64,000 nucleotides of DNA from Alphaproteobacteria bacterium. Its GTDB lineage: Bacteria > Pseudomonadota > Alphaproteobacteria > Rickettsiales > SXRF01. The notes below the pieces were generated by a model that saw only the letters and a program-made list of their open reading frames with translations, made no database searches and was not told where the DNA came from. The DNA lies in the NCBI GenBank assembly GCA_013288305.1, contig JABDCD010000001.1, positions 4,923 through 68,922 of the forward strand. Reading direction: 5' to 3'. The position numbers and the translations under genes were made by a program. Below are positions 1,772 to 54,893 of this stretch, one piece after another (the stretch's first letter is position 1; the number at the start of each line of letters is the position of its first letter).

Positions 1772-2710
1772 ATGCGTATCGCCCTCATCCAACTCACCAG
1801 CGGTGCAAACATCGCCGCCAATATTGCTAAAATCGAAACGCTGGTGAAACAGGCAGCGGGGCAGGGGGCCGAGCTTGTCGCGCTGCCGGAGAATGCATTC
1901 TACATGCGCGCTGAGGGGGAGGCTGCCGCACCGAAATATACGCAAGTTGAACATCCCGGCGTCGCCGCCGCGGCGCGGATGGCGAAGGAAAATCATATAT
2001 GGCTGTTGGCGGGAAGTGTGGCGGTAAAAAATGCTGAGTGCACAGGGCTGAGTGCAGAGGAAGAAAATAATCCGGGACTTAGCACTCAGCACTCAGCACT
2101 CACTTACAACCGCTCCATTCTCTTCAACCCCGAGGGTGAAATCGCCGCGCAGTACGATAAAATTCACCTCTTCGATGTCGATGTCGGCGACGGGCAGACC
2201 TACCGCGAATCGGCGAGGATATTGCCGGGGGAGAAGGCGGTGGTGGTAAGAATGGATGTGGAGAGATGGAGATGTGAAGATGTGGTAAAAAAAGAAAATT
2301 CTCTTTCTTCACATCCCCACATCCTCACATCCCCACATCCCGCCCTCGGCCTCACCATCTGCTACGACCTCCGCTTCCCGCAGCTATACCGCGCGCTGGC
2401 CAAGGCGGGGGCGCAGATTCTCGCCGTGCCGTCGGCGTTTACGGTAGTGACCGGCGAGGCGCACTGGCACGTGCTGCTGCGCGCACGCGCCATCGAGAAC
2501 GGCTGCTTCGTCATCGCCCCGGCGCAAACCGGTACGCACCCGGGCAACCGCAAAACCTACGGCCATTCGCTCATCGTCGACCCCTGGGGAAAAATCCTGG
2601 CCGACGGCGGGACGGAAGAGGGAGTGGTTATGGCTGAGATTGATCTGGATGAAGTAAAGCGCGTCCGAACGAAATTGCCCAGCCTGGAACATGATAGGGA
2701 GTTTGCTTGA
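1772..2710 (+). CDS. carbon-nitrogen hydrolase (Nit/nitrilase superfamily) carrying two in-frame repeat insertions
   Basis: [21 protein letters not shown] and [18 protein letters not shown] give the Glu-Lys-Cys CN-hydrolase signature. It is interrupted at 2033-2103 and 2254-2340. Confidence 0.88.
2033..2103. repeat. tandem-heptamer-arm hairpin, family B (GCTGAGT), in frame in the Nit hydrolase
   Basis: gctgagtgcacagggctgagtgcagagg / loop aagaaaataatcc / agcactcagcactcagcactcac. Confidence 0.85.
2254..2340. repeat. tandem-unit-arm hairpin, family A (GGATGTGG), in frame in the Nit hydrolase
   Basis: ggatgtggagagatggagatgtgaagatgtgg / loop taaaaaaagaaaatt / cacatccccacatcctcacatccccacatcc. Confidence 0.88.
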
Positions 2711-2770
2711 CAGAAGGTTAATATCTGCTAGCAATGTTGCCCCGCCTCTAAACTAACGACAGGAAAATTT

Positions 2771-3370
2771 ATGGCTCTCCCGCAACGTTACAATATCGAT
2801 TTTGGTCAATATAATCCCGTGAAAGAGACGCTGGGCGACCTTCTACTCGTTTTCAGAGAAATGTACGAGGTTATCGAAAATTGGGATGTTATGGAAGCGA
2901 ATGCAGTGAAACAGGAAGCAATAATGCGAGATTGTGGGGCAATGGAATTTAATCCACGTCCGGGGGAGAGCATCTCCATGTTGCGCAAGCTGCAAAGTGA
3001 CCTGGTCGGTCCCAGGCATATGGATAGGTTGCAGATCAAGGAATTAGCGGGGCGCTGGGAGTCATGCCTAGATAAACTGCTCGGATTTTATCAGGGTAGA
3101 GAAAACCGTCCGGGGGGATTTGCCAATGCACAAGAGGCTGCATCCCTGTTCGATTTCTTGTGGCTTCCCGGTTCAGGGGTGCCACGTCCTGAGGAATCGC
3201 CTTTGCACCGGTTACTTGATGTTGCCTGCGAGATTCGCAATCAACAAGTGGAGTTTGACAGGCACGGAGATTGGTCATGTTCGGGGAAAACTATACGCGA
3301 ATTGCTATATGCTATTCATACCGATATAGCAGCCGATATTCCGAAAGCTAAAAAAGAGGTCACTAGATAG
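2771..3370 (+). CDS. hypothetical protein (orphan, AT-shifted)
   Basis: 199-aa ORF with no motif I recognise. G+C is lower than in the neighbours. It converges on ubiG with an 8-nt overlap. Confidence 0.5.
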   Translation: MALPQRYNIDFGQYNPVKETLGDLLLVFREMYEVIENWDVMEANAVKQEAIMRDCGAMEFNPRPGESISMLRKLQSDLVGPRHMDRLQIKELAGRWESCLDKLLGFYQGRENRPGGFANAQEAASLFDFLWLPGSGVPRPEESPLHRLLDVACEIRNQQVEFDRHGDWSCSGKTIRELLYAIHTDIAADIPKAKKEVTR

Positions 3371-4223
3371 CTTTCCTCCCCGCCACCATATAATTCACCG
3401 CCAAATCCCCCGCATCCAGCCGCCATTCAAACGTCAGCGGATTCATCGCCATCCCGGTCATTTCCAGTATCTCGATATGATGATGGCGCAGATGGGCGCA
3501 GAGTTCCGACGGCCGCAGGAATTTATGCCAGTCATGCGTGCCGACGGGCAGCAAGCCGCACACATATTCCGCGCCGAGAATAGCCAGGGCGAAGGATTTC
3601 GCCGTGCGGTTGAGCGTGGAATAGATGATGAGTCCGCCCGGCTTCAGCAGCGCGCAGCTTGCCGCCACGAACGCCTCGACATCGGCGACATGCTCGATGA
3701 TTTCCAGCGCCAGCACGACGTCATATAGTGCTGAGTGCTGAGCGTTAAGTAGCGAGTTGTTTTTTTTCTCAGCACTCAGCATTGTGCACTCAGCACTTAA
3801 CTCCTCCACCGCCGCGCACCGATAATCAATCTCCAGCCCGCCCCGCTCGGCATGAAGCCTCGCCACCGCGATGTTTTTTTCCGAAGCGTCGATGGCGGTG
3901 ACGCGTGCGCCCAGCCGCGCCATCGGTTCGGCGATCAGCCCGCCGCCGCAGCCGATGTCTAAAAGGCGTAAGCCTTTTAGGGGATGTGGGGATGTGGGGA
4001 TGTGGGGATATGAGGATGAAGCCCTATCGTCTTTTTTCTCCACATCTCCACATCTCCACATCTCCACGTCGCGCTTCGATATCTGCTCCACTATCCACCC
4101 AATCCTTATCGGATTCATCCGATGCAGCGGCTTGAATTTGCCCTGCGGATTCCACCATTCCCCGGCGATGCGCGAGAAGCGCTCGATCTCGTCCTTATCG
4201 ACAGTGCTTGTGGCAGTAACCAT
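3363..4223 (-). CDS. ubiG: ubiquinone biosynthesis O-methyltransferase carrying two in-frame repeat insertions
   Basis: EIERFSRIAGEWWNPQGKFKPLHRMNPIR, the SAM motif LLDIGCGGGLIAEPMARLG, and LKPGGLIIYSTLNRT. Confidence 0.9.
   Translation of the reverse strand: MVTATSTVDKDEIERFSRIAGEWWNPQGKFKPLHRMNPIRIGWIVEQISKRDVEMWRCGDVEKKDDRASSSYPHIPTSPHPLKGLRLLDIGCGGGLIAEPMARLGARVTAIDASEKNIAVARLHAERGGLEIDYRCAAVEELSAECTMLSAEKKNNSLLNAQHSALYDVVLALEIIEHVADVEAFVAASCALLKPGGLIIYSTLNRTAKSFALAILGAEYVCGLLPVGTHDWHKFLRPSELCAHLRHHHIEILEMTGMAMNPLTFEWRLDAGDLAVNYMVAGRKAI
3727..3797. repeat. family B hairpin, in frame in ubiG
   Basis: agtgctgagtgctgagc ... T-run loop ... ctcagcactcagcattgtgcactcagcact. Confidence 0.85.
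3980..4067. repeat. family A hairpin, in frame in ubiG
   Basis: ggggatgtggggatgtggggatgtggggatatgagg ... ctccacatctccacatctccacatctccac. Confidence 0.88.
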
Positions 4224-4273
4224 AATGGTGCTATTGTCCTGCGCAATGATTTCTCAAAAAGGAACTATAACCT

Positions 4274-4660
4274 ATGCCCGGGCAAAAGCCGAATCTAAAA
4301 ACGATGCTGTGGGAACCCCTGGCGCAGGAGGCGTGGACGCTGGGCGATAAGCTGGTGCGCCGGGTATTCGGCGCAGCGGAAGGCTGGGAGAAGCGCCGCG
4401 ACATCGTGAAGAACAATTACGACCTCGGCGTGCGCTACCTCAAAGACGGCTATGTGGGCGATGCCATGTTCCGCTTCAAGCTCGTGACCTGGCTCGACCC
4501 CAGCCATGCCGAGGGCTGGTACGGCCTGGGCGCCGCGTATGTTGCCGGCGGCAAGCAGGCGGCGGCGGAAAAAGCGCTCAAAAAAACCCTGGAGATCAAA
4601 CCCGATTATCCGGAAGCGTCGCAACTGCTGGCAACCCTCGAAGGCAACGCTGCGCAATGA
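4274..4660 (+). CDS. tetratricopeptide-repeat protein
   Basis: TPR-like repeats: GDAMFRFKLVTWLDPSHAEGWYGLGAAYVAGGKQAAAEKALKKTLEIKPDYPEA. The start is uncertain; 4313 is an alternative. Confidence 0.65.
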   Translation: MPGQKPNLKTMLWEPLAQEAWTLGDKLVRRVFGAAEGWEKRRDIVKNNYDLGVRYLKDGYVGDAMFRFKLVTWLDPSHAEGWYGLGAAYVAGGKQAAAEKALKKTLEIKPDYPEASQLLATLEGNAAQ

Positions 4661-5109
4661 CGGAAATAACCCTCCGCCCCGCCACTGAATCCGAGGCGAA
4701 AATACTTACAGCGATACATCAAGAATGCTTTCCAACTTATTGGAGTATAAATTCATTTAATGATTTCTTCTCCGTGGACGGAACGCTGGCGCTGCTAGCT
4801 GAAAATCCCCATGCTGTCGGCATGATGGTCTACCGCCTCCACCATGAGCAGGCCGATATTATCACCATCGCCGTCCGCCCTGCCTGCCGCCGCCGCGGCA
4901 TCGCCCGTGCCCTGCTGGCGCAGGCCATGCAGACCATGGCCTCACGCGGCGTAAACGCCATCTTCCTCGACGTCGAGGACGGCAACGTCGCCGCGCTGCA
5001 ACTCTATGAAACGCATGGCTTTACCGTCATCAACCGCCGCAAGCACTATTATAAGCAAAAGGACGGAAGTTTCACGGATGCGCTTGTCATGACGCGGAAA
5101 TTAAGTTAG
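4657..5109 (+). CDS. rimI: ribosomal-protein-alanine N-acetyltransferase (GNAT)
   Basis: GNAT motif A, IAVRPACRRRGIARALL, and a RimI-like length. Its start overlaps the upstream stop (ATGA). Confidence 0.8.
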   Translation: MTEITLRPATESEAKILTAIHQECFPTYWSINSFNDFFSVDGTLALLAENPHAVGMMVYRLHHEQADIITIAVRPACRRRGIARALLAQAMQTMASRGVNAIFLDVEDGNVAALQLYETHGFTVINRRKHYYKQKDGSFTDALVMTRKLS

Positions 5110-5189
5110 TGGTCAGTGGCCGGTTGTCAGTGGCCAGTCAGACAGCCAGTTTCGCGCCCTTACTGACCACTGGTCACTGATCACTGGAC
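5110..5189. repeat. hairpin family C (GTCAGTGGCC), intergenic rimI|lysC
   Basis: tggtcagtggccggttgtcagtggccagtcag ... ctgaccactggtcactgatcactggac. It starts directly after the rimI stop. Confidence 0.8.
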
Positions 5190-5199
5190 ACTACAAATT

Positions 5200-6429: not shown

Positions 6430-6435
6430 GGAAAC

Positions 6436-6912: not shown

Positions 6913-7010
6913 CGCTGTATCTTTCCTTGAACAATTAAATCCTACCGCTAGTATAGCCTGACAATGTTACGTATTTTTTAATAAATTTCAATAAAAATAT
7001 TAACACAACT

Positions 7011-8135
7011 ATGACTAACCATTTAAATTCTCTGTGGCGGCGCGGCGCCCACTTCCTTGGCTGCCAGTACGCCATCATGGGCGGGGCGATGTCGTGGGTT
7101 TCCGAGCGCAACCTGGTGGCGGCGCTTTCCAACGCCGGGGCGTTCGGTGTGATTGCCTGTAGTTCAATGTCGCCGGAATTGCTGGATAAGGAGATTACTG
7201 AAACCAAAAAACTTCTTACTTCCCCCTCCCCCGGTCGGGGGGAGGGCCGGGGAGGGGGTGACAAGGGAAATATTACTCGTGAAGCCCCCTCCCTAACCCT
7301 CCCCCCTGCAGGGGGAGGGGACAAGGTGCCCTTCGGCGTCAACCTCATTATCATGCACCCGCAGATGGATGCGCTCATCGAAGTCTGCAAAAAGCACAAC
7401 GTCTCGCACGTCGTGCTGGCGGGCGGCATTCCCAAGGATGGCTGGATCAAGGCGATCAAGGCCTATGGGGCGAAGGTGCTGTGCTTCGCGCCATCGGCCA
7501 TCATCGGCCGCAAGCTGGTGCGCCTCGGCGCCGACGCGCTGGTGATCGAGGGCATGGAGGCGGGCGGCCATATCGGCCCGGTCTCGACCTCGGTGCTGGC
7601 GCAGGAAATCCTGCCGCACATGAAAGACGTGCCGGTGTTCATCGCCGGCGGCATCGGCCGCGGCGAGGCCATCGCCGCCTATCTCGAAATGGGCGCATCC
7701 GGCGTCCAGCTGGGCACGCGCTTTGTCTGCGCCACCGAGTGCATCGCCCACCCGAACTTCAAGGAATGCTTCATCCGCAGCCAGTCGCGCGATGCCATCC
7801 CCTCGGTGCAGATCGACCCGGATTTCCCGGTCATCCCCGTGCGCGCCATCGCCAACAAAGCCACCGACGCCTTCACCCGGATGCAGCACGAAGTCATCGC
7901 CGAATTCAAGAGCGGCAAGCTCGATAAAAAAGAAGCGCAGCTCAAGATCGAACATTTCTGGGCCGGCGCCCTGCGCAAAGCCGTCATCGACGGCGACATC
8001 GAGTACGGCTCAGTCATGGCCGGCCAGAGCGTCGGCATGGTCAGCAAAATCCAGCCGGTGAAGGAGATTCTGGAGGAACTGATCGGGCAGGCGGAGGAGT
8101 ATATTACCGGGCGAAACTTAATCCCCAAAAAGTAA
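7011..8135 (+). CDS. NAD(P)H-dependent flavin oxidoreductase / nitronate monooxygenase family (FabK-like) with an in-frame repeat insertion
   Basis: GGAMSWVSERNLVAALSNAGAFGVIA, ALVIEGMEAGGHIG and FIAGGIGRGEAIAAYLEMGASGVQLGTRF. The insertion is at 7221-7326. Confidence 0.85.
   Translation: MTNHLNSLWRRGAHFLGCQYAIMGGAMSWVSERNLVAALSNAGAFGVIACSSMSPELLDKEITETKKLLTSPSPGRGEGRGGGDKGNITREAPSLTLPPAGGGDKVPFGVNLIIMHPQMDALIEVCKKHNVSHVVLAGGIPKDGWIKAIKAYGAKVLCFAPSAIIGRKLVRLGADALVIEGMEAGGHIGPVSTSVLAQEILPHMKDVPVFIAGGIGRGEAIAAYLEMGASGVQLGTRFVCATECIAHPNFKECFIRSQSRDAIPSVQIDPDFPVIPVRAIANKATDAFTRMQHEVIAEFKSGKLDKKEAQLKIEHFWAGALRKAVIDGDIEYGSVMAGQSVGMVSKIQPVKEILEELIGQAEEYITGRNLIPKK
7221..7326. repeat. two tandem CTTGTC-(C)nTCCCC hairpin modules (family E), in frame in the NMO-like gene
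   Basis: tccccctcccccggtcggggggagggccggggagggggtgacaagg and ccccctccctaaccctcccccctgcagggggaggggacaagg. Confidence 0.85.
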
Positions 8136-9338: not shown

Positions 9339-9516
9339 AATATATGGCCTCCTTAATGTCCGATGAAATGTCTAACACCGTTAGTCATTAATATTTTGAT
9401 ATTAAACACAAATATATATTATATAATAAAAAATGTCCGCATCGATGTCCATATAATAGTCCAATACAATATTCAAAACAAGTAATGACATTGCATATGT
9501 ACTGAAAGCGCATTGA

Positions 9517-9525: not shown

Positions 9526-9531
9526 CTTTGC

Positions 9532-14943: not shown

Positions 14944-16010
14944 GCTTCTCCGATCGCCTCGACACGCTGGTGCGGCGCCACCAGGAATTGAACGACCTGC
15001 TGGCGGGCGGGCAGGTCAGCGGCTCCGATTTCGCCAAATATTCCAAGGAATATGCCGACCTCACGCCGCTGGTGGGAACTATCCTGGCCTATCAGGGCGC
15101 GCAAAAATCGCTCCTGGACGTGAAGGCTATGATGGCCGACCCCGCCTGCGACGCCGAGATGAAAAAAATCGCCGAGGAGGAGATGCACGACATCCAGCAC
15201 GCGCTGCCGGAGCTGACGCGCGCCGTGCAGCTGGCGCTGTTGCCCAAGGATGCCGCCGACGAGAAAAACGCCATTCTTGAAGTTCGCGCCGGAACGGGCG
15301 GCGAGGAAGCGGCGCTGTTCGCTGCCGATCTGTTCCGCATGTATCAGCGTTACGCCCAGAATCAGGGCTGGAAATTCGAGGTGCTGTCGGTATCCGAATC
15401 CGGCGTCGGCGGCACCAAGGATGCCTCGGCGGAAATCACCGGCAAGGGCGTCTTCGCCCGGATGAAATTCGAATCCGGCGTGCACCGCGTGCAGCGCGTG
15501 CCCAAAACCGAGGCGCAGGGGCGCATCCACACCTCCGCCGCCACCGTCGCCGTGTTGCCCGAGGCCGAGGAGGTGGACATCCACATCGAGGACAAAGACC
15601 TGCGCATCGACGTCTTCCGTTCCAGCGGCCCCGGCGGCCAGTCGGTCAACACCACCGATTCGGCCGTGCGCATCGTGCACCTGCCGACCGGCCTCATCGT
15701 CCAGCAGCAGGACGAAAAATCGCAGCACAAGAACAAAGCCAAGGCGCTCAAAGTCCTGCGCGCGCGGCTGTATGAGATGGAGCGCGAAAAGCTGGCCAGC
15801 GCGCGGGCGGCCTCCCGCAAGGAAATGGTCGGCTCGGGAGACCGCTCCGAGCGCATCCGCACCTATAATTTCCCGCAGGGCCGCGTCACCGACCACCGCA
15901 TCAACCTCACCCTCTATAAAATCGACGAGGTAATGAACGGCGATCTTTCCGAATTCACCGATGCATTGATTGCCGAAGACCAGGCCAGGCAGCTGGCTGA
16001 ACTCAGCTGA
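14940..16010 (+). CDS. prfA: peptide chain release factor 1
   Basis: GGQ motif in [24 protein letters not shown] and an RVPKTE tripeptide-anticodon region. Its start overlaps the hisS stop (ATGA). Confidence 0.96.
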
Positions 16011-16011
16011 T

Positions 16012-16962
16012 ATGCAAAATACCCCTTTGCAATTCCCCTTTTTTTCTGCTAAAGACGCTTTGCGCGATGCGGTAAGGTCGCTCGCGCGGGCCCGGATTGA
16101 AACGGCGTCGCTGGATGCAAGGTTATTGCTCCAGCATGTTTTGAACATAAGCCATGAACGGTTGCTGGCCGATGAAAAGCTGGCATTGATGCCGTTTCAA
16201 GAAGCGGATTATCAGGAGTTGGTTAAAAAGCGCTGCCTTCGTAGGCCGGTCGCGCAACTTATCGGCAAGCGCGAGTTTTATGGCCGGACGTTCAAGGTGA
16301 CGGAAGATACGCTCGATCCGAGGCCGGATAGTGAAACGCTGATCGAGGCGGTGCTGGAATGGGTCAATGGTCATAGGTCACGGGTCATGGGAAAAGAAAA
16401 ATTACCCATGACCTATGACCCAAAACCCATGACTATTCTCGATCTAGGCACGGGAACCGGCTGTTTGCTGCTGACGTTGCTGAAGGAATATGAAAATGCC
16501 AAAGGAGTTGGCGTGGATATTAGCGAAGCGGCGCTGAATGTGGCGCAGGAAAATGCGGAAAGCTTGGATGTGCGGGAACGCGCGGAATTTGTGCATTCGC
16601 ATTGGGATCAAAACATAGAAGGAACATTCGATATTATCGTCGCCAACCCCCCTTATATTCCAACCAATGCCATCGCCGCGCTGGCGCCGGAAGTGGCGCA
16701 GTATGAACCGAAACTCGCGCTCGATGGCGGCGCGGACGGGCTGGAATGCTACCGCGCCATCCTGCCGCCATTGCCGCGATTGCTGGCTGCCGGCGGGTTT
16801 GCCGCCTTTGAGATCGGGCAGGGGCAGGAAGAAGACGTAAAAGAATTAGTTGCTAGTTGCCAGTTGCGGGTTGCTGGCATCAAGAAAGATTTAGGAAATA
16901 TTTCTAGATGCATATTGGTACGGAAATCAGGCAATAACCAGCAACTGGCAACTAGCAACTAG
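16012..16962 (+). CDS. prmC: release-factor glutamine N5-methyltransferase (HemK) carrying repeat-derived segments
   Basis: SAM motif ILDLGTGTGCLLL and catalytic IVANPPYI. It starts 1 nt after the prfA stop. Confidence 0.9.
   Translation: MQNTPLQFPFFSAKDALRDAVRSLARARIETASLDARLLLQHVLNISHERLLADEKLALMPFQEADYQELVKKRCLRRPVAQLIGKREFYGRTFKVTEDTLDPRPDSETLIEAVLEWVNGHRSRVMGKEKLPMTYDPKPMTILDLGTGTGCLLLTLLKEYENAKGVGVDISEAALNVAQENAESLDVRERAEFVHSHWDQNIEGTFDIIVANPPYIPTNAIAALAPEVAQYEPKLALDGGADGLECYRAILPPLPRLLAAGGFAAFEIGQGQEEDVKELVASCQLRVAGIKKDLGNISRCILVRKSGNNQQLATSN
16361..16433. repeat. tandem-heptamer-arm hairpin, family D (GTCATGG), in frame in prmC
   Basis: gggtcaatggtcataggtcacgggtcatggg / loop aaaagaaaaatta / cccatgacctatgacccaaaacccatgac. 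Confidence 0.87.
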
Positions 16963-16973
16963 CAACTAGCAAC
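16849..16973. repeat. heptamer-arm inverted repeat, family F (GCYAGTT), spanning the prmC 3' end
   Basis: gttgctagttgccagttgcgggttgctggc ... ccagcaactggcaactagcaactagcaactagcaac. The arms are about 50 bp apart, and the stop codon lies inside the right arm. Confidence 0.8.
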
Positions 16974-16991
16974 AAAACGGAGTTAACATTC

Positions 16992-17613: not shown

Positions 17614-17898
17614 ATGAAGATCACGTATGATCTGAAGAAAAACGCCGCCAATATGGCCAAGCACGGCGTTTCATTCGAGGATGCGTACGAGTTTGATTAT
17701 GCCGATTTTGCCGGCTGCCAATATAAGATCGACAGGCGAAGGGATTATGGCGAAGTGCGCTGGATAGCCACCGGCTATCTTCATAACAGGTTGCATGTGC
17801 TTTGTTATGTGGAAAAATTTAATGGTATCCGCGCCATCAGTTTTCGTAAAGCCAACGAAAGGGAAAGGAAAAAATATGAAAAAAGATCAGTACATTGA
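17614..17898 (+). CDS. brnT: BrnT family toxin (DUF497)
   Basis: YDLKKNAANMAKHGVSFEDA...RWIATGYLHNRLHVLCYVE...IRAISFRKANERERKKY. Confidence 0.85.
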   Translation: MKITYDLKKNAANMAKHGVSFEDAYEFDYADFAGCQYKIDRRRDYGEVRWIATGYLHNRLHVLCYVEKFNGIRAISFRKANERERKKYEKRSVH

Positions 17899-18181
17899 AT
17901 ATGAAGATGGAACGCGCGTGCTTCTGGATGAAGACGACGTGCCGGAACTGACCGACGAGGATTTTAAAAGGATGGTGCCGTTCAGCGCGCTACCCAAATC
18001 GCTGCGGCGCAAATTGTCGGCCATACAAAGCCGAGGTCGCCCGCGCTCGAAAGCGCCCAAGAAGATGATCGCCTTCCGCTTCGCGCCGGATTTGCTTGCC
18101 CACATCAAGGCGTCAGGCCGCGGCTATAACGCCCGCGTCGAGAAACTGCTGCGCCAGGCGTGGGAGCAGGGGTTACTGTAG
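17876..18181 (+). CDS. brnA: BrnA family antitoxin (DUF4415-like)
   Basis: It overlaps the brnT 3' end by 23 nt. Contains GRPRSKAPKKMIAFRFAPDLLAHIKASGRGYNARVEKLLR. Confidence 0.8.
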   Translation: MKKDQYIEYEDGTRVLLDEDDVPELTDEDFKRMVPFSALPKSLRRKLSAIQSRGRPRSKAPKKMIAFRFAPDLLAHIKASGRGYNARVEKLLRQAWEQGLL

Positions 18182-21688: not shown

Positions 21689-21785
21689 CTTGTCATCCTC
21701 GGGCCTGACCCGAGGATCCATCCAAAAAATTTACCGCGCTCATGGAGTTTTGATGGATGGTCGGGTCAGGCCCGACCATGACAAA
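21689..21785. repeat. CTTGTCA-hairpin inverted pair (family L), after clpB
   Basis: cttgtcatcctcgggcctgacccgaggatccatcc ... ggatggtcgggtcaggcccgaccatgacaaa. Confidence 0.85.
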
Positions 21786-34175: not shown

Positions 34176-34241
34176 TAGGTTCTAGGTGCTAGAGGCTAGG
34201 TTCTAGTTTTAACTAGCACCTAGAACCTAGCCCCTAGCACC
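34176..34241. repeat. tandem-heptamer-arm hairpin, family G (TAGGTTC), rpsQ|rplN
   Basis: taggttctaggtgctagaggctaggttctag tttt aactagcacctagaacctagcccctagcacc. Confidence 0.88.
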
Positions 34242-34264
34242 TTAATGAAAAAACAGAGGAATTT

Positions 34265-34633
34265 ATGATACAGCAACAAACCAATCTCGAAGTCGCCGAC
34301 AATTCCGGTGCGCGGCGTGTGATGTGCATCAAGGTATTGGGCGGTTCGCAGCGGCGGTACGGCTCGGTCGGCGACGTCATCGTCGTCTCGATCAAGGACG
34401 CCATTCCGCGCGGCAAGGTCAAAAAAGGCGAGGTGCACAAGGCCGTCATCGTGCGCACGCGCCGCGATATCCGCCGTCCCGACGGCAGCACGATCCGTTT
34501 CGACAAGAACGCAGCGGTGCTGCTCACGGCGCAAAACGAGCCGATCGGCACGCGCATCTTCGGACCCGTAACGCGCGAACTGCGCGCCAAGCAGTTCATG
34601 AAGATCGTGTCGCTGGCGCCGGAGGTATTATGA
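34265..34633 (+). CDS. rplN: 50S ribosomal protein L14
   Basis: [28 protein letters not shown]. Confidence 0.98.
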
Positions 34634-34690
34634 GGTTCTAGGGACTGGGTTCTAGGTTCTAGTAGCACCTAGCCCCTAGAACCTAGCACC
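34634..34690. repeat. family G hairpin, rplN|rplX
   Basis: ggttctagggactgggttctaggttctag tagcacctagcccctagaacctagcacc. Confidence 0.88.
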
Positions 34691-34712
34691 TAAATTTATA
34701 AGGAATGAGAAA

Positions 34713-39257: not shown

Positions 39258-39722
39258 ATGCAACTCAACGAACTCAAATCCAATCCCGGCTCGCACCATC
39301 GCAAGATGCGCGTGGGTCGCGGCATCGGCAGCGGCAAGGGCAAAACCTGCGGCCGCGGCGGCAAAGGACAAACCGCGCGCACCGGCGTGCGCATCAACGG
39401 CTTCGAGGGCGGCCAGACGCCGATCCATCGCCGCCTGCCCAAGCGCGGCTTCAACAACCCGACGCGCAAGGAAATCGCCACCGTCAATCTCGGCGCCATC
39501 GAAAAAGCCATCACCGCAGGCAAACTCGACGCCAAGAAGGACATCAACCTGGACGCGCTGAAAGCCGCCGGATTGCTGCGCAAAAATGCTTCGGAAGTCA
39601 AACTGCTGGCCAAGGGCGAACTGAAAGCTAAGATTTCGCTGCACGTCAATTTTGCGTCTGAAGGCGCGAAGGCTGCGGTGGAGAAGGCGGGTGGCAGTGT
39701 CGTCATGAGTCATGGGTCATGA
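39258..39722 (+). CDS. rplO: 50S ribosomal protein L15 (last codons lie in a repeat arm)
   Basis: [21 protein letters not shown]. Confidence 0.97.
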
Positions 39723-39785
39723 GTCATGGGGTTCAAGCGATTCACTCATGACCAATGACCAAAAACCCATGACCCACTTATGACC
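39702..39785. repeat. family D hairpin spanning the rplO 3' end and the secY start codon
   Basis: gtcatgagtcatgggtcatgagtcatgggg ... ctcatgaccaatgaccaaaaacccatgacccacttatgacc. Confidence 0.88.
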
Positions 39786-41794: not shown

Positions 41795-41840
41795 CGCGGC
41801 CGTAAATATGACTAAAATCCCCATTCCTTTTAACAAAATC

Positions 41841-41915
41841 GGGATTGGGGATTAGGGATTAGGGATTGGAAAATAATGATTTTTTCCCAATCCCCAATCC
41901 CCAATCCCCATCCCC
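41841..41915. repeat. tandem-heptamer-arm hairpin, family H (GGGATTR), adk|rpsM
   Basis: gggattggggattagggattagggattgg / aaaataatgatttttt / cccaatccccaatccccaatccccatcccc. Confidence 0.9.
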
Positions 41916-41930
41916 TAAAAAGAGGTTTCT

Positions 41931-42308
41931 GTGGCTCGTATCGCTGGCGTAAATATTCCCTCGGCCAAACGGCTCGACATCGCGCTGACCTATATTCACG
42001 GCATCGGCCACGTCAAGGCCGCCGAAATCTGCAAAAAGGCCGATCTGGGAGCGGAAAAACGCGTGCATCAGCTGACCGAATCGGAAGTCAGCCGCCTGCG
42101 CGAAATCATCGACCGCGACTACACGGTCGAGGGCGACCTGCGCCGCGAAGTGTCGATGAACATCAAGCGCCTGGTCGATCTCGGCTGCTACCGCGGCCTG
42201 CGCCACCGCAAAAAACTGCCCACCCGCGGCCAGCGCACGCATACTAATGCGAGAACCCGCAAGGGCAAGGCAAAGCCGATTGCGGGCAAGAAGATAGTTA
42301 CGAAGTAA
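41931..42308 (+). CDS. rpsM: 30S ribosomal protein S13
   Basis: GTG start. [10 protein letters not shown]...[26 protein letters not shown]. Confidence 0.96.
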
Positions 42309-42312
42309 AATT

Positions 42313-42404
42313 GGATGTGGGGATGTGGAAGGATGTGGAGATGTGGGGAATAAGAAAGATTTTTTCTTTCTCCACATCCCCACATCTCCATCTCCCCACA
42401 TCCC
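42313..42404. repeat. family A hairpin, rpsM|rpsK
   Basis: ggatgtggggatgtggaaggatgtggagatgtgggg / aataagaaagattttttctttc / tccacatccccacatctccatctccccacatccc. Confidence 0.9.
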
Positions 42405-42847: not shown

Positions 42848-42853
42848 GAAGAC

Positions 42854-42919
42854 GTACCCGGTACACGGTACTCGGTACCCGGTGAAGATTTTGAGTACCG
42901 TGTACTGAGTACCATGTAC
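42854..42919. repeat. tandem-heptamer-arm hairpin, family I (GGTACNC), rpsK|rpoA
   Basis: gtacccggtacacggtactcggtacccggtg / aagattttga / gtaccgtgtactgagtaccatgtac. Confidence 0.88.
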
Positions 42920-44513: not shown

Positions 44514-44626
44514 CTTGTCATTCCCGCGAAGGCAGGAATCCAGCAAAAGCGCCATGGGCGCGGTATAGAATTCTTCTGCGCCGCAGACGCGGCGCGCTGG
44601 ATTCCCGTTTTCACGGGAATGACAGG
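44514..44626. repeat. CTTGTCA-hairpin inverted pair (family L; ATTCCC-N8-GGGAAT cores), rplQ|crcB
   Basis: cttgtcattcccgcgaaggcaggaatccagc ... gctggattcccgttttcacgggaatgacagg. Confidence 0.87.
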
Positions 44627-45052: not shown

Positions 45053-46034
45053 AATTATTATCACTGAAGCCGACGGCGGCATCCGCCTCGACCGCTGGTT
45101 CAAGCGCCATTATCCCGGACTGCAACATGCGTGGCTCGAAAAAAACCTGCGCAAGGGATTGATTCGCGTGGGCGGCAAAAAAGCGAAATCGTCAGACCGG
45201 GTAGAAATAGGGCAGGTGGTAGATATCAAATGCCCGATGCCGGATGTCACAAAAAATTCCCCGAATCCTGAATCCCGAATCCTGAATCCTGATGACATCC
45301 GCATGATCCAAAATGCCGTCCTCTATAAAGACGCCAACCTCATCGTCCTGGGCAAGCCATACGGCCTGGCGGTGCAGGGCGGCAGCAAAATCGTCAAAAG
45401 CATCGACGGAATGCTCGACGCCCTGCGCGACGGCGGCAAGGAACGCCCCAAGCTCGTCCACCGCCTCGACCGCGACACCAGCGGCTGCCTGGTGCTGGCG
45501 CGCAGTGCCAAAGTCGCCACGGCCATCATGCATCTTTTTTCCTCCCGCCGCGTCGAAAAAACTTATTGGGCGCTGGTCAATAACGCGCCGCTGCCGCCGG
45601 AGGGCGTCATCAACCTGCCGCTCTTAAAAAAAGAAAATCCCAAAGCCAGCGGACGTGCTGGCGGCCCCGAAGGAAGGGACTACGAAATCGTGCAGGTCAA
45701 CGAGGAAGGCCAGAAAGCGACCACCGAATACCGCGTCATCGACCAGCTCGCGCGCAAATTCGCGCTGGTCGAGATGAAGCCGCTCACCGGCCGTATGCAC
45801 CAGCTGCGCGTCCATATGTCGGCCATCGGCTGCCCCATCGTCGGCGATCACAAATATGGCGGCGGCACCGAAGACGCCCGTTCGCTGGGCGTCGAAAACA
45901 TCCTGCATCTTCATGCGCGGCGCATCGTCATCCCGGCCTTGCCTGGCGGCAAGAAAGTCGATGTCCTGGCACCGCTGCCCGACCATATGCGGCGCAGTTT
46001 CAAAGCACTGGGGCTGGACGTTCCGAAGAAATGA
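45045..46034 (+). CDS. RluA-family 23S rRNA pseudouridine synthase (S4 domain + catalytic domain) with an in-frame repeat insertion
   Basis: Catalytic HRLDRDTSGCLVLAR and GRMHQLRVHM. The insertion at 45242-45300 lies between the S4 and catalytic domains. Confidence 0.88.
   Translation: MDKIIITEADGGIRLDRWFKRHYPGLQHAWLEKNLRKGLIRVGGKKAKSSDRVEIGQVVDIKCPMPDVTKNSPNPESRILNPDDIRMIQNAVLYKDANLIVLGKPYGLAVQGGSKIVKSIDGMLDALRDGGKERPKLVHRLDRDTSGCLVLARSAKVATAIMHLFSSRRVEKTYWALVNNAPLPPEGVINLPLLKKENPKASGRAGGPEGRDYEIVQVNEEGQKATTEYRVIDQLARKFALVEMKPLTGRMHQLRVHMSAIGCPIVGDHKYGGGTEDARSLGVENILHLHARRIVIPALPGGKKVDVLAPLPDHMRRSFKALGLDVPKK
45242..45300. repeat. GAATCCY x4 tandem heptamer flanked by the inverted repeat ggatgtcac/gtgacatcc-like, in frame in the pseudouridine synthase gene
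   Basis: ggatgtcacaaaaaattccccgaatcctgaatcccgaatcctgaatcctgatgacatcc. Confidence 0.75.
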
Positions 46035-46693: not shown

Positions 46694-46732
46694 ATTGCTT
46701 ACCTTCCTCCTGAACTTCGAGGGACAAAACCT

Positions 46733-48340: not shown

Positions 48341-48456
48341 GGCCAAATAAAATGCAGACAGTTGAAACCGGAATCTCGTATGACGAAACTCCTTGCGTTG
48401 CCTGACGCTAATGTGTATAATGAATATAATCTATACACATAAACAGAGAATACATT

Positions 48457-49148: not shown

Positions 49149-49162
49149 GAGGGACATAAGCC

Positions 49163-51154: not shown

Positions 51155-51157
51155 ACC

Positions 51158-52393: not shown

Positions 52394-53607
52394 TGGATAC
52401 GCGCCGGCTCCGGCTTATATTCTTTTAGAATGGCGCCGTATAGCTCGCTGCCCAGTAACTCTTTCATACGCTTTGACCGCTCATATTGCCTGATCAGTTT
52501 TTCATGCCCCCTGGGATCGTTCTTGGGATTAGGAAGGTCATAGCTGGTTGCTTTTACAGTCTCCAGTTTTTCATTCAGCAATCTATCCTCCAGCGCCTTA
52601 TGGGCAAAACAAGGCTTGCCGCCGTCCCTGTCGCGCCCGCGCACGGCATCGACGAGCGCCGCCATGCTGACAGCCATGCTGACAAAAGGATCGGCATCCA
52701 CGCCGGGAAGGCGATTTTCGATACGGGTTTGATCGAACACTTCTTGCGGATGATTGGCGCCGTAGGCTTTTACGATGCGTACGGAAATGGGAAGCCTGCC
52801 GCGATTATTCTTGGCATCTTCATATCTGTTGTGACCTGTGCTGATCCCAATGCCGTTAGGTGTGGAATTATTGGCATGGATGCGCCATAGCGATTCCTCC
52901 GTTGGCAGCATTGAAATGGCTGCTTCGTTTTGCACTTCGAGCAAAGCATGGGCGCAGCGATACAGCAGATCATGATCAGTGCCGAAGACATTGCGGTTTT
53001 TATCGTCATACAGGCTGACATTGATGTGTAGCGCCGAAGTCAGGTCGCCGTAATTCTCATATTTTGTATTGGACTTTTTGGCGATCTCGCTGCCTCGATA
53101 GGGACGGACGCTGAAATTGGGCTCTATGTAAGGCGCTCTGTCATTGCTGATTTGCGTCAGGCAGGTAGTATGGAGAAGCGCATCTTTCAGCGCCTGTTTT
53201 TTAAGCAGGTGAGTAACGTGGGCTACCGCTTCGGGCCTGAAGGCCGCGCTGTTGAATCCCTGCTTTCGATCTGCCGGCTCGGCAATATTGATTTCGTATT
53301 GCTCCGGAACCATGGGCTGGCTGCGCCCCGGCAATCCAAGCCCGCCTATCGCCTCGTAACCTGTTTTTTCAAGATATTTTTTTCCATCCGCCAGTGTATC
53401 TATAAGCATTTGATTGAGACCGGGTAAATAAATCCGGCGGGCTATGGGTCTTTTATGCTCGTCTTCAGCCATGAATTCCAGCTCGATAGCCGAACGCACA
53501 TATAGGCCGCGCGCCGCCAATTCTTTCTTATATTCGCCAATGCGCTTCAGCGCTGTTTTTTGCAGCTCCGTTAAATTCGAAAAATCGATGTCGCGGGTTT
53601 TTGCCAT
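52390..53607 (-). CDS. divergent glutamine-synthetase-fold ligase (catalytic domain only)
   Basis: GS catalytic motifs appear in the expected order: IELEFMA, SALHINVSL, SVRIVKA, TRIENRLPGVDADPFV, and a C-terminal ELLGSELYGAILKEYK. No N-terminal beta-grasp domain is visible. The gene is AT-rich. Confidence 0.6.
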   Translation of the reverse strand: MAKTRDIDFSNLTELQKTALKRIGEYKKELAARGLYVRSAIELEFMAEDEHKRPIARRIYLPGLNQMLIDTLADGKKYLEKTGYEAIGGLGLPGRSQPMVPEQYEINIAEPADRKQGFNSAAFRPEAVAHVTHLLKKQALKDALLHTTCLTQISNDRAPYIEPNFSVRPYRGSEIAKKSNTKYENYGDLTSALHINVSLYDDKNRNVFGTDHDLLYRCAHALLEVQNEAAISMLPTEESLWRIHANNSTPNGIGISTGHNRYEDAKNNRGRLPISVRIVKAYGANHPQEVFDQTRIENRLPGVDADPFVSMAVSMAALVDAVRGRDRDGGKPCFAHKALEDRLLNEKLETVKATSYDLPNPKNDPRGHEKLIRQYERSKRMKELLGSELYGAILKEYKPEPARIH

Positions 53608-53767
53608 GGTATCTATGATCTTAGGCTATGATTATTAATATATCTTTTTATTCGTAAAATATATCGCCTTTTCCCCTTCCTGGCCATTTCTACTGCTCTT
53701 ATACTCATCCTTGAATGACCACCACCGCTGGCCGGAATGATTAACTAAACATTAAAAAAGTCAAAAA

Positions 53768-54205
53768 ATGTCAAGAAAATTGAGAACAAAACAGATAAAA
53801 GCGGCACGGCTGGTATTGGAAAATTACTCCGCTAATGGCATCGCGCGTGAACTTAAAATACGCCCGGAAACACTATCGCGTTGGAAAAAACTTCCCGCTT
53901 TTAAGAAAATAATAGAACAGGTTACGCAAAGTGAACTGGAGGAGGCGCGTTGTCAATTTGTGCATCTGGTCGATGCTTCGTTAGCGGCATTATGGTCGGT
54001 TGTCAAAGGGAGGCATTGCGATCCGGTTCGCCTCAAAGCCGCTTTAAGCGTGCTCAAACTGGCCGGAATCGAGCGCATTTCGGTGCCCAACGTGTCCGAA
54101 ACGGTGGATAACGCGCCCAAACAGGAGCAAAACGCGCCCGCAAGCGCGGCACCTAATGAAACGCCCGGCCAAACTCCTCCCGCAGCATCCTGTCGAATGT
54201 TGTGA
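53768..54205 (+). CDS. hypothetical protein with an N-terminal HTH-like segment
   Basis: [21 protein letters not shown] resembles a helix-turn-helix. The C-terminus is low-complexity and overlaps the lipB 3' end by about 50 nt. Confidence 0.45.
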
Positions 54206-54893
54206 GCGAAACATCGGCGCCCAGCGCCTTAAGCGACGTCACGCCCGCGTCGGCAATGCCGCAGGGGACGATGCCGCCGTAATGCGACAGGTCAGGATGG
54301 ACGTTGACCGAAATGCCATGATACGCCACCCATTTGCGCACGCGGATGCCGATGGCGGCGATTTTGGCTTCCCCAAAATCAGGTATCGGGTATCGGGCAT
54401 CGGGTATCAGTATTTTTTTTTCTGATTCCTGATTCCCGATTCCTGATTCCCGATTTACCCAAACGCCCACCCGCCCCTCGTGCGTAAACCCTTCCACGCC
54501 GAAGCGGGCAAGCGTGGCGATAATCCATTGCTCCAGCGTATGTACGTACGTACGTACGTCGCGCCCGCGCCGGTTGAGATCGAGCATGGCGTAGGCGACG
54601 CGCTGGCCGGGGCCGTGATAGGTGAATTGCCCGCCGCGGCCTGAGGGGTAAACCGGAAAGCGGGCATCGAGCAGGTCGGCGGCATTGGCGCTGGTGCCCG
54701 CCGTGTAGAGCGGCGGATGCTCCAGCAGCCACACCATCTCCGCCGCCCGCCCGGCCAGAATATCCTCGACCCGCCGCTCCATCGTTTCGACGGCAGCGGG
54801 GTAATCGACCGGCGCGGTGGATATTTTCCATTCCAATCCCCCCTCCCCTTGAGGGAGGGGGTTAGAGGGAGGGGACTTTGTTATTATATTCAT
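54153..54893 (-). CDS. lipB: octanoyltransferase LipB carrying repeat-derived insertions
   Basis: [23 protein letters not shown], and [17 protein letters not shown]. Start set at ATG 54893; TTG 54836 is an alternative. The track start 55004 would overlap the tRNA. Confidence 0.88.
54379..54453. repeat. tandem-heptamer-arm hairpin, family J (GGTATCG / GGAATCR), in frame in lipB
   Basis: tcaggtatcgggtatcgggcatcgggtatcag / T-run loop / ctgattcctgattcccgattcctgattcccga. The arms are only partly complementary. Confidence 0.75.
54838..54876. repeat. family E module (CCCCTCCCC hairpin) in the lipB 5' region
   Basis: cccccctccccttgagggagggggttagagggaggggac. Confidence 0.75.

What the first reader, a model, noticed from the sequence alone, without database searches (positions are those of the whole stretch)
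2061..54420. Orientation bias: in all six intragenic hairpins with A/T-rich loops the purine-rich loop strand is the sense strand
The six copies and the loop peptides they encode:
- Nit hydrolase at 2033: EEENN
- Nit hydrolase at 2254: VKKEN
- ubiG at 3727: EKKNN
- ubiG at 3980: EKKDD
- prmC at 16361: GKEKL
- lipB at 54379: SEKKI

In each case the sense strand carries GAAAAA/AAGAAA, never the TTTCTT (Phe/Leu) complement. Genes on both genomic strands are represented, so the bias follows the coding strand. That fits selection retaining only copies that encode a charged, surface-tolerated loop. Alternatively the insertion itself is coupled to transcription or replication direction.
Basis: seen in the sequence. 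Interest (0 to 1): 0.6.

Follow-up and report, generated by a model that had tools for sequence, protein, structure and literature searches.

The report
Protein-coding hairpin repeats with oriented loops
Short hairpin-forming repeats sit inside intact housekeeping genes of this bacterium, and they almost always keep the A-rich side of their loop on the coding strand, most likely because the other way round would put greasy phenylalanine/leucine stretches or stop codons into the protein.

Summary
All six hairpins, their coordinates and their loop peptides check out, and all six are true insertions relative to solved homologues.

They belong to a dispersed class with 14-17 copies in this window and none in shuffled sequence. 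The stem arms are imperfect tandem 7- or 8-base units, and the loop usually starts with an A-run.

Six of six is weak on its own: p=0.03 against 50:50, and unremarkable against the ordinary 83% excess of A-runs on coding strands here. I added about 160 kb from related genomes. The count then became 22-23 intragenic copies with the A-rich loop strand as sense against 1 opposite, across 12 distinct host-gene sites. Copies between co-directional genes split 3:6.

Opposite-strand genes 1 kb apart carry opposite polarity, which excludes coupling to replication. The intergenic mix argues against coupling to transcription.

Flipping only the loop gives a stop in 7 of 23 cases. The other 16 stay open but turn hydrophobic.

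The closest known things are Rickettsia palindromic elements and intragenic REPs. This is a new variant of them. Its origin and its always-G/T-rich 5' arm remain unexplained.

The parts
2032..2102 (+). Intragenic hairpin in the Nit hydrolase (site 1). Arms are GCTGAGT/ACTCAGC 7-mers; the sense loop is GAAGAAAATAAT (EEENN).
   Evidence: It is an insertion relative to Nit2 2W1V and is absent in relatives L134, L137 and L140.
2254..2342 (+). Intragenic hairpin in the Nit hydrolase (site 2). Arms are GGATGTGG/CCACATCC 8-mers. The loop TAAAAAAAGAAAATTCTCTTTCT (VKKENSLS) is quasi-palindromic.
   Evidence: An orthologous, diverged copy in L134 has compensatory arm changes.
3727..3800 (-). Intragenic hairpin in UbiG (site 2). 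GCTGAGT family; the sense loop is GAGAAAAAAAACAAC (EKKNN).
   Evidence: It aligns to a 17-aa gap in E. coli UbiG 4KDC. In the AlphaFold model, residues 142-166 lie between helix H139-155 and strand E167.
3980..4065 (-). Intragenic hairpin in UbiG (site 1). GGGGATGT/ACATCTCC 8-mer arms; the sense loop is GAGAAAAAAGACGAT (EKKDD).
   Evidence: AlphaFold residues 51-85 are coil with pLDDT 54-68. An ortholog in L134 keeps a diverged copy.
5108..5192 (.). Intergenic hairpin between rimI and lysC. Arms are GTGGTCA/TGACCAC-type 7-mers; the loop has no A/T run.
7223..7320 (+). A second class of intragenic palindrome (CCCCTCCCCC...GGGGGAGGGG) inside FabK/NMO. The sense loop GACAAGGGAAATATTACTCGTGAAG (DKGNITRE) is purine-rich.
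   Evidence: It is a 34-aa insertion relative to FabK 7L00. The same class sits inside genes in L135 and L141.
16359..16433 (+). Intragenic hairpin in PrmC. Arms are GGTCATG/CATGACC 7-mers; the sense loop is GGGAAAAGAAAAATTA (GKEKL).
   Evidence: It aligns to a gap in HemK 1SG9. The relative L140 has a different insert at the same site.
16845..16977 (+). Split element. An AGTTGCT array and an AGCAACT array flank the native PrmC C-terminal motif (IKKDLGNISRCILV). The stop codon lies in the 3' array.
34176..34242 (.). Intergenic hairpin between rpmC (ribosomal protein L29) and rplN. TAGGTTC/GAACCTA family, with stop codons in both arms.
34633..34692 (.). Intergenic hairpin between rplN and rplX, of the same TAGGTTC family.
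39700..39776 (.). Intergenic hairpin between rplO and secY. GAGTCAT/GGGTCAT 7-mers; the loop is not A/T-rich.
41837..41917 (.). Intergenic hairpin between adk and rpsM. GGGATTG/CAATCCC 7-mers; the loop runs A-run then T-run (GGAAAATAATGATTTTTTCC).
42314..42395 (.). Intergenic hairpin between rpsM and rpsK. GGATGTGG family; the loop is AATAAGAAAGATTTTTTCTTTCT (A-run then T-run).
42853..42919 (.). Intergenic hairpin between rpsK and rpoA. GTACNCG 7-mers; the loop is GAAGATTTTGAG.
45240..45294 (+). Half-decayed intragenic copy in RluC: an A-run (ACAAAAAATT) plus a GAATCCY 3' array, encoding DVTKNSPNPESRILNP.
54376..54456 (-). Intragenic hairpin in LipB. GGAATCR/CGATRCC 7-mers; the sense loop is TCAGAAAAAAAAATACTG (SEKKI).
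   Evidence: It is a 24-aa insertion relative to LipB 1W66.
58147..58217 (.). Intergenic hairpin between guaB and rsmB (both on the - strand). The A-rich loop AAGAAAATAACGAATTAC is on the + strand, opposite to transcription.

Best explanation
The six hairpins belong to a dispersed family of 55-135 bp palindromic repeats.

**Anatomy.** Each arm is an imperfect tandem array of a 7- or 8-base unit. The 5' arm is G/T-rich and the 3' arm is A/C-rich. This holds on both strands, so only the loop defines orientation. The loop usually begins with an A-run directly after the 5' arm.

**Why they can sit in genes.** A 7-mer array encodes the same cyclic 7-residue peptide in all three frames. A copy can therefore sit in any frame, provided the unit has no stop codon or one unit in three has mutated. 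Such copies persist in housekeeping genes only at permissive inter-element loops of the protein.

**Why the loop is oriented (inferred).** The loop can lie either way, through random insertion or through inversion between the arms. With the A-run on the sense strand it encodes Lys/Glu/Asn/Asp, which is tolerated. With the T-run on the sense strand it encodes Phe/Leu/Ile runs, or in about 30% of cases a stop, and is purged. Intergenic copies feel no such filter and keep both polarities.

**Shown.** The anatomy, the status as insertions, the bias, the intragenic-versus-intergenic contrast, the consequences of flipping, and compensatory array-wide evolution of the two arms.

**Inferred.** That selection on the peptide is the cause, and that loops can flip in place.
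For: - **Anatomy and abundance.**; 14 hairpins against 0 in shuffles.
- **Frame independence of arrays.**. The families with stops in both arms (TAGGTTC, AGTTGCT) do not occur as complete in-frame inserts inside a gene body here; TAGGTTC is purely intergenic and the AGTTGCT/AGCAACT arrays overlap only the PrmC C-terminus, where the 3' array supplies the stop codon.
- **True insertions.** Alignments to solved structures.
- **Census over the window plus 14 related loci (about 227 kb).** 22-23 intragenic copies have the A-rich strand as sense against 1 opposite. These cover 12 distinct host sites: Nit x2, UbiG x2, PrmC, LipB, SucA, HemF, UDG, IMPase x2 and MnmA.
- **Intergenic control.** 3 same and 6 opposite. 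Fisher p=6e-4. A-run/T-run counts are 22:1 intragenic against 7:14 intergenic, p=1.4e-5.
- **Loop-only flips.** 7/23 give stops. The rest switch hydropathy from -1.55 to +1.07 (Wilcoxon p=3e-5).
- **Independent protein-level census.** Of 120 UbiG orthologs, 56 carry inserts at the same two sites. In 36 of these the centre is K/E/N/D-rich, and in only 3 is it hydrophobic.
- **Structure.** The AlphaFold UbiG model places both inserts between core elements.
- **Same direction in ordinary coding DNA.** A5+ to T5+ runs on the sense strand are 144:29.
Against: - One intact UbiG (L139 1061-1137) carries the T-rich orientation (GLFL) in a nearly perfect 31/33 hairpin. The filter is therefore leaky or slow.
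- The independence of events is uncertain. Inserts at the two UbiG sites may descend from few ancient insertions whose arms evolved in place.
- The intergenic sample is small (9 informative copies), and three of them sit just upstream of start codons.
- Several added cases were found with queries that contained K-rich loops: HemF and UDG.
- No complete genome could be censused.
- No experiment shows that the flipped peptide is harmful.
Confidence: 0.75

Rival explanations
1. The element inserts, or is generated, in a strand-specific way tied to transcription. The A-run would then always end up on the non-template strand, and selection on the peptide would be irrelevant.
For: The intragenic data alone (22-23:1) are equally compatible with this. 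Three intergenic copies directly upstream of start codons have the same polarity as the downstream gene (L048, L133 and L121-12236).
Against: Six copies lying between co-directional genes, inside likely operons, have the opposite polarity: window 58147, L003-5575, L121-16414, L135-5773, L135-15936 and L137-8428. On the transcribed strand of intergenic copies, T4+ runs outnumber A4+ runs 14:7. One intragenic copy is opposite.
Confidence: 0.08
2. Polarity follows the direction of replication, as with IS200/IS605-type single-strand transposition into the lagging-strand template. The apparent link to coding strand would arise because genes are co-oriented with replication.
For: It is known from established work on IS608-type elements that single-strand transposons show replication-linked orientation (my knowledge, not tested here).
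Against: Nit (+; copies at 2032 and 2254) and UbiG (-; copies at 3727 and 3980) lie within 2 kb, hence on one replichore, yet have opposite genomic polarity. The same is seen for UbiG (+) and Nit (-) in L134 and L141. No transposase was found among the unassigned ORFs of the window.
Confidence: 0.02
3. The constraint is on the mRNA rather than the protein. A U-rich loop inside a strong hairpin in a coding region would be harmful, for example as an RNase E or Hfq target or as a pause or termination signal. An A-rich loop would be harmless.
For: Hairpin complementarity is actively kept in coding copies. Compensatory, array-wide arm changes between the window and L134 leave dG near -40 kcal/mol. 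This shows some constraint or mechanism at the nucleic-acid level. Intergenic copies in the ribosomal-protein operon sit between cistrons, where RNA processing is plausible.
Against: In the flipped orientation the T-run lies inside the loop, not after the stem, so it is not a terminator-like arrangement (reading). Transcribed intergenic copies tolerate T-runs (14 against 7). No Rfam family matches. The amino-acid consequence is large and consistent.
Confidence: 0.1
4. There is nothing specific to the elements. The pattern is the ordinary compositional asymmetry of coding strands (A over T, purine loading), plus a small sample.
For: Sense-strand AT skew is +0.12, and A5+ to T5+ runs are 144:29 (83%) in coding DNA outside the elements. 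At p=0.83, six of six has probability 0.33, and 22 or more of 23 has probability about 0.08.
Against: This describes the same outcome rather than offering a different cause. Newly arising loops have no reason to start at 83%. Intergenic copies of the same elements show no A-excess. The flip test gives a direct reason for the asymmetry.
Confidence: 0.05

Closest known systems
Rickettsia palindromic elements (RPE-1 to RPE-8+; Ogata et al. 2000 Science 290:347; Claverie & Ogata 2003), as summarised in PMC10969869, PMC1779305 and PMC3733652
   Same: Both are dispersed palindromic repeats found in intergenic DNA and in-frame inside unrelated housekeeping genes of an alphaproteobacterial lineage. 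In both, the genes stay open and the insert adds 20-45 residues at places compatible with the fold. In both, each family encodes a recognisable peptide, so orientation and frame are effectively fixed in coding copies. One relative here is labelled a Rickettsiales MAG.
   Different: - RPEs are 100-150 bp families with a conserved consensus (PMC1779305). Most copies here are 55-90 bp.
- The arms here are arrays of 7/8-base units that differ from copy to copy and evolve in concert.
- The host genome has 57% GC.
- No sequence comparison with RPE consensus sequences was possible here.
Intragenic REPs (GTAG- and CGTC-tagged palindromes, mobilised by RAYT transposases; Di Nocera et al. 2013, PMC3733652)
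   Same: Both are short stem-loop repeats, mostly between co-directional or convergent genes, with a minority inside genes encoding 20-30 extra residues. Multiple insertions in one gene occur in both.
   Different: - There is no consistent GTAG or CGTC tag at either end; 5 of 15 copies have one within 8 nt, about the chance level.
- No RAYT was seen in the window.
- The arms are tandem arrays rather than a fixed 20-40 bp palindrome.
Heptamer simple-sequence arrays: cyanobacterial STRR, GGGAATC (Xanthomonas) and GGGGA(C/T)T (Nostoc) repeats (PMC4692102), and TAACTGA repeats (PMC4679880)
   Same: The unit length of 7 is shared, as are some identical units (GGGAATC in the LipB copy, GGGGATT at 41837). 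Both show a scattered distribution over distant phyla: the CCACATCY array alone was found in more than 119 places.
   Different: - Those are described as plain direct arrays, mostly non-coding and under-represented on coding strands.
- Here two inverted arrays with an A-run loop form a hairpin, and half of the copies are in genes.
- Only 22 hairpins were found in 852 kb around such arrays in other phyla, against 14 in 64 kb here.
MITEs with intragenic copies (ERIC, Correia, BOX; review PMC10969869)
   Same: Both are small non-autonomous-looking inverted-repeat elements that can create in-frame fusions.
   Different: There are no consistent target-site duplications (0-6 bp, irregular). There is no terminal inverted repeat distinct from the body. 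There is no partner transposase.
[quoted passage not shown]
   Same: In both, coding DNA has dyad symmetry that is tolerated in ORFs.
   Different: PARCELs are tandem 25-residue amphipathic domains in proteins of unknown function. They are not single hairpins inserted into enzymes.

Membership tests
Protein-coding palindromes of the RPE kind | A dispersed repeat that can fold as a hairpin, present in many copies in one genome | tested here: met
   There are 14-17 copies in 64 kb against 0 in 20 shuffles. Fold energies are -21 to -68 kcal/mol.
Protein-coding palindromes of the RPE kind | Copies inserted in-frame in otherwise conserved genes that stay open | tested here: met
   Eight or nine intragenic copies were found in the window. 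All align as insertions against solved homologues.
Protein-coding palindromes of the RPE kind | Insert located where it does not disturb the fold (surface loop) | tested here: inconclusive
   In the AlphaFold UbiG model both inserts lie between core elements. Insert 1 is coil with pLDDT 54-68; insert 2 is a helix extension plus coil. Solvent exposure was not computed, and the other hosts were judged only from alignment gaps.
Protein-coding palindromes of the RPE kind | Sequence similarity to an RPE family consensus; length 100-150 bp | not testable with these tools
   No RPE consensus or model was available, and Rfam has no match. Length was tested and mostly does not fit (55-98 bp; one of 133 bp).
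REP / BIME (RAYT-mobilised) | Conserved GTAG or CGTC tetranucleotide at one end | tested here: not met
   Five of 15 copies have such a tetramer within 8 nt of an end, about the chance level, and at no fixed position.
REP / BIME (RAYT-mobilised) | Associated RAYT (IS200/IS605-like Y1 transposase) gene in the genome | not testable with these tools
   Only the 64-kb window is available. Pfam on its unassigned ORFs gave BrnT/BrnA, DUF4167, ORF6N and TPR, but no transposase.
MITE | Terminal inverted repeats with target-site duplication of fixed length | tested here: not met
   The best flanking direct repeats are 0-6 bp and irregular. Filled-versus-empty comparison with L134, L139 and L140 shows replacement of a few native codons, not a duplication.
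Heptamer SSR arrays (STRR-like) | Two or more tandem copies of a 7-nt unit | tested here: met
   Period-7 or period-8 self-match of 0.6-0.96 in the arms.
Heptamer SSR arrays (STRR-like) | Plain direct arrays, predominantly non-coding | tested here: not met
   The arrays come as inverted pairs around a loop, and about half are inside genes.

The most novel reading that the evidence does not exclude
These hairpins may not be classical copy-and-paste elements. They may be self-maintaining palindromes that are generated and reshaped in place.

Three rules hold across all unit types:
- The 5' arm is G/T-rich on both strands in 43 of 43 elements.
- An A-run sits directly 3' of that arm.
- Several intergenic copies have loops that run A-run then T-run.

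All three are what one would get if two broken DNA ends were each extended at the 3' end by reiterated copying of a 7-8 nt template plus an A-tail, and then joined head to head.

Concerted, compensatory change of both arms then keeps the hairpin intact and creates new 'families' at fixed sites. One example is GATGTGG/CCACATC changing to GATGAGA/TCTCATC between orthologous inserts. The process repeatedly hits or persists at the same permissive protein loops, as at the two UbiG sites in about 45% of orthologs. That would be an undescribed route by which bacteria add peptide segments to enzymes.
Probability: 0.12. Interest if true: 0.8.

Novelty: new variant of a known kind. Interest (0 to 1): 0.5.

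Why it matters
The orientation bias itself is what purifying selection predicts, so it teaches little new. The carrier is more interesting.

- It is a class of hairpin repeats built from 7/8-base arrays.
- It lives inside essential enzymes: UbiG, PrmC, LipB, FabK, SucA, HemF and MnmA.
- It occupies the same protein loops in many related lineages.
- It keeps its stem complementary while the stem sequence changes.

This gives a natural experiment on which protein loops accept 20-35 extra residues, and on which residues are accepted.

It extends the 'protein-coding palindrome' phenomenon of Rickettsia to a higher-GC, apparently free-living or poorly known alphaproteobacterial lineage.

It also links that phenomenon to the unexplained, phylum-spanning heptamer repeats of cyanobacteria, Xanthomonas and Beggiatoaceae. 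If the arms really are produced in place, it would point to an unknown DNA-repair or synthesis activity.

Tried and rejected
1. **Protein search with the six insert peptides concatenated.** It found only the window's own UbiG, Nit and LipB. These exact peptides are not widespread, and short inserts cannot reach E<=10 in a database of 5.8e9 sequences.
2. **Genome-contig scan with CCACATCYCCACATCYCCA.** A genome-wide census of this organism was therefore not possible. Most of those arrays are not hairpins.
3. **Metagenome-contig scan with an arm + A-run + arm pattern.** Only 3 of 10 hits were real elements.
4. **Extending the contig beyond the window.** The protein was not on record.
5. **Whole-element flip test.** All six flips give stops. 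I rejected this as a fair test because the native arms have already been purged of stops in the native phase. I replaced it with loop-only flips.
6. **Longest-ORF gene calling for the window.** It picks antisense ORFs in the ribosomal operon. I replaced it with family-supported genes.
7. **Nit homologues at 50% clustering.** Too coarse: few relatives with array-type inserts.
8. **Other checks with a negative result.** GTAG/CGTC tags and target-site duplications showed nothing consistent. Rfam gave no match to the elements. Literature searches for the assemblies and for this element type found nothing.

Full report
**What is there**

The window has 57% GC. It reads as a housekeeping region of a probable alphaproteobacterium, with gene order hisS-ispG-ptsP-lysC-ubiG followed by a ribosomal-protein operon. 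The taxon is not established. It is inferred only from the gene content and from relatives, one of which is labelled a Rickettsiales MAG.

The six hairpins lie in four genes:
- a Nit-type CN hydrolase (1772-2710, +)
- UbiG (3363-4223, -)
- PrmC (15970-16962, +)
- LipB (54153-55004, -)

Alignment to solved homologues shows each is an insertion of 17-34 residues. The homologues are UbiG 4KDC, LipB 1W66, HemK 1SG9 and Nit2 2W1V.

**Anatomy of the elements**

The stems are not arbitrary palindromes. Each arm is an imperfect tandem array of a 7- or 8-base unit. Units seen include GCTGAGT, GGRGATGT, GGTCATG, GGAATCR, GGGATTG, TAGGTTC, AGTTGCT, GTACNCG and GTGCCTT.

My detector finds 14 such periodic-arm hairpins in the window and none in 20 dinucleotide-preserving shuffles. 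With manual additions there are 17:
- Eight or nine are inside genes.
- Eight or nine lie between genes, several between cistrons of the ribosomal-protein operon.

The reverse complement of X-loop-X' is X-loop'-X'. The arms therefore read the same on both strands, and only the loop, plus arm imperfections, defines orientation.

A perfect 7-mer array also encodes the same cyclic 7-residue peptide in every frame. This explains how such DNA can be accommodated in any reading frame. Units containing a stop (GCTGAGT, CATGACC) occur in genes only with one unit in three mutated. The families with stops in both arms do not occur as complete in-frame inserts inside a gene body here: TAGGTTC is purely intergenic, and the AGTTGCT/AGCAACT arrays only overlap the PrmC C-terminus, where the 3' array supplies the stop codon.

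**Is the orientation bias more than chance?**

In the window alone it is weak. Six of six gives p=0.031 against 50:50, and one of the six loops (2254-2342) is an A-run followed by a pyrimidine run, hence nearly symmetric. Coding DNA outside the elements already carries 144 A5+ runs against 29 T5+ runs on the sense strand. Against that background, six of six is unremarkable.

I therefore looked for more copies. The window's genome could not be retrieved as a whole. Relatives could:
- Two loci of a MAG labelled Rickettsiales (L003, L048).
- Loci found through insert-bearing proteins (L121-L123).
- Loci found through a DNA pattern (L124, L131, L133).
- Six syntenic loci found through UbiG orthologs (L134, L135, L137, L139, L140, L141).

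I applied an automatic rule over about 227 kb: periodic arms, with polarity called when A minus T in the inter-arm region is at least 3. The result was 22 intragenic copies with the A-rich strand as sense (23 counting the split PrmC element) against 1 opposite. They cover 12 distinct host sites: Nit x2, UbiG x2, PrmC, LipB, SucA, HemF, UDG, inositol monophosphatase x2 and MnmA. That is p=6e-6 per copy and p=5e-4 per site.

The single exception is an apparently intact UbiG (L139 1061-1137). Its sense loop is GCTTATTTCTT, its peptide is RGLFLH, and its hairpin is nearly perfect at 31/33.

An independent protein-level view agrees. Of the 120 best UbiG orthologs, 33 carry an insert at the window's site 1 and 23 at site 2. 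Their arm peptides differ. In 36 of the 56 the centre is K/E/N/D-rich, and in only 3 is it hydrophobic-dominated.

**Which explanation?**

*Replication coupling is excluded.* Nit and UbiG lie 1 kb apart on opposite strands and carry opposite genomic polarity. The same holds in L134 and L141.

*Transcription coupling predicts the same bias in transcribed intergenic copies.* Instead, copies between co-directional genes are 3 same and 6 opposite, with many ambiguous A-run-then-T-run loops. This differs from the intragenic ratio (Fisher p=6e-4). Counting runs without any threshold gives the same picture. Intragenic elements hold 22 A4+ runs and 1 T4+ run on the sense strand. Intergenic elements hold 7 and 14 on the transcribed strand (p=1.4e-5).

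*Flipping only the loop mimics inversion between the arms.* It creates a stop in 7 of 23 genes. The other 16 stay open, but the loop peptide changes from strongly hydrophilic (mean Kyte-Doolittle -1.55) to hydrophobic (+1.07), with FF or FFF in most. Stop avoidance alone would therefore leave many opposite copies. Intolerance of Phe/Leu runs in an exposed loop explains their absence.

*Structure.* An AlphaFold model of UbiG built on 120 homologues (pLDDT 89.8) places insert 1 as low-confidence coil between helix 31-50 and strand 86-90. Insert 2 is a helix extension plus coil before strand 167-173.

The bias is the same kind, and about the same strength, as the ordinary coding-strand preference for A-runs. 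It is ordinary selection acting on an unusual insert.

**What goes beyond the finding**

1. *Concerted arm evolution.* Orthologous inserts in the window and in L134 (UbiG 70% identical) differ at many arm positions, yet both keep about -40 kcal/mol hairpins. The changes are compensatory and array-wide. At Nit site 2, GATGTGG/CCACATC has become GATGAGA/TCTCATC. At UbiG site 1 it has become GATAGAA/TTCTATC. The arms therefore evolve in concert, and unit 'families' can arise in place.
2. *The same protein sites are used again and again.*
   - Nit site 2 carries an array hairpin (window, L134), a GC-rich palindrome (L135), or nothing (L137, L139, L140).
   - PrmC in L140 has a different insert at the window's site.
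   - One UbiG (P0132, L135) has near-identical copies at both sites.
   - The GCTGAGT type sits at site 2 in the window but at site 1 in other lineages. Copying between sites therefore also occurs.
3. *A fixed arm order.* In all 43 periodic-arm hairpins the 5' arm is G/T-rich (mean 0.69), which by symmetry holds on both strands. The A-run sits directly 3' of it whatever the unit. I have no tested explanation. An end-extension-and-joining origin would produce these rules, but it is speculation. Common descent from a G-rich ancestor is the sober alternative.

**Comparison with known systems**

In behaviour these elements match the 'protein-coding palindromes' of Rickettsia (RPEs) and the intragenic REPs described by Di Nocera et al. 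(PMC10969869, PMC1779305, PMC3733652).

They fail or cannot be tested on the features that define membership:
- No GTAG/CGTC tag and no regular target-site duplication.
- No transposase in the window.
- No Rfam match.
- Mostly shorter than RPEs.
- Arms built of arrays.

The units overlap those of known heptamer repeats, namely GGGAATC and GGGGATT (PMC4692102) and, in kind, TAACTGA (PMC4679880). Those are described as plain, mostly non-coding arrays. The CCACATCY array alone occurs in many phyla, but rarely as a hairpin: 22 in 852 kb against 14 in 64 kb here.

I file this as a new variant of a known kind.

**Limits**

- No complete genome of the lineage was censused.
- The number of independent insertion events is uncertain, because arms evolve in place.
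- Two added cases (HemF, UDG) were found with a query that contained K-rich loops.
- Intergenic polarity was judged from flanking gene direction, not from transcripts.
- The harm of a flipped loop is inferred, not measured.

Noticed in passing
proteins P0010-P0120; same unit as window 41837-41917: More than 80 predicted proteins from AT-rich, eukaryote-like contigs (actin, cathepsin F, Ras/Arf, RCC1) begin or end with GIGDWGLGIGDW-AQSPIPNPQSPIPNP. This is a loop-less (GGGGATT)n(AATCCCC)n palindrome. It is probably a repeat read through by gene callers at gene ends.
   Followed up: partly
window 7223-7320; L135 10695-10786 and 15686-15783; L141 6467-6531, 12149-12234 and 15678-15780: A second class of GC-rich palindromes (CCCCTCCCCC...GGGGGAGGGG) also sits in-frame inside genes: FabK/NMO, Nit, an APH kinase and an FAD oxidoreductase. 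It encodes ...SPSPGRGEGRG...PSLTLPPAGGGD-like peptides. In L135 it occupies the same Nit site that holds an array hairpin in the window.
   Followed up: partly
window 21690-21784 and 44516-44624; L140 17430-17536; L134 4422-4512: A REP-like hairpin family with ends TGTCATTCCCGCGAAGGC...GGGAATGACA recurs in the window and in relatives. It is unrelated to the array hairpins.
   Followed up: no
L139 2239-3096 (Nit), element near 2744-2791: At Nit site 1 of this relative, only a 5' array (GGATTCR x4) plus AAAAG is present. It is complementary to native downstream codons (ILFNPE), a hint that arrays may be templated from nearby sequence.
   Followed up: no
window 16845-16977: The two inverted arrays at the end of prmC are 63 nt apart and enclose the native, conserved C-terminal motif of PrmC. 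The gene's stop codon (TAG) lies inside the 3' array, so the repeat has remodelled the C-terminus.
   Followed up: partly
window 2771-3370: A 199-aa ORF with no Pfam match lies between Nit and UbiG. The slot is empty in L134 and L137 and holds unrelated genes in L135 (434 aa) and L140 (211 aa), so it is a variable slot.
   Followed up: partly
window 54977-55058 and 54153-55004: A tRNA gene (+) overlaps the 5' end of the long LipB ORF. The real LipB start is probably the Met at 54893, matching the database protein of 246 aa.
   Followed up: partly
window 17614-18181: A BrnT/BrnA toxin-antitoxin pair lies just downstream of prmC and a DUF4167 gene.
   Followed up: no
UbiG orthologs P0158 and P0175 (site 2); Nit homologue P0240 (site 1): Another in-frame hairpin type, encoding LRAQRSNP...IASS(A)PPRNDG, occupies the same permissive sites in other lineages.
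   Followed up: no
window 2023-2031, 2245-2253, 16837-16846, 42305-42313: Four copies are preceded by a similar GTAA(A/G)A(A)AAT-like stretch just outside the 5' arm. This could be part of the element or a target preference.
   Followed up: no
loci L002-L120: The 8-mer array CCACATCY/GGRGATGT occurs in Bacteroidota, Chloroflexota, Acidobacteriota, Cyanobacteriota, Patescibacteria, Actinomycetota and others. Some MAGs carry many copies, for example the Sphingobacteriales MAG JADKCK01 and the Lentimicrobiaceae MAG SKPS01.
   Followed up: partly
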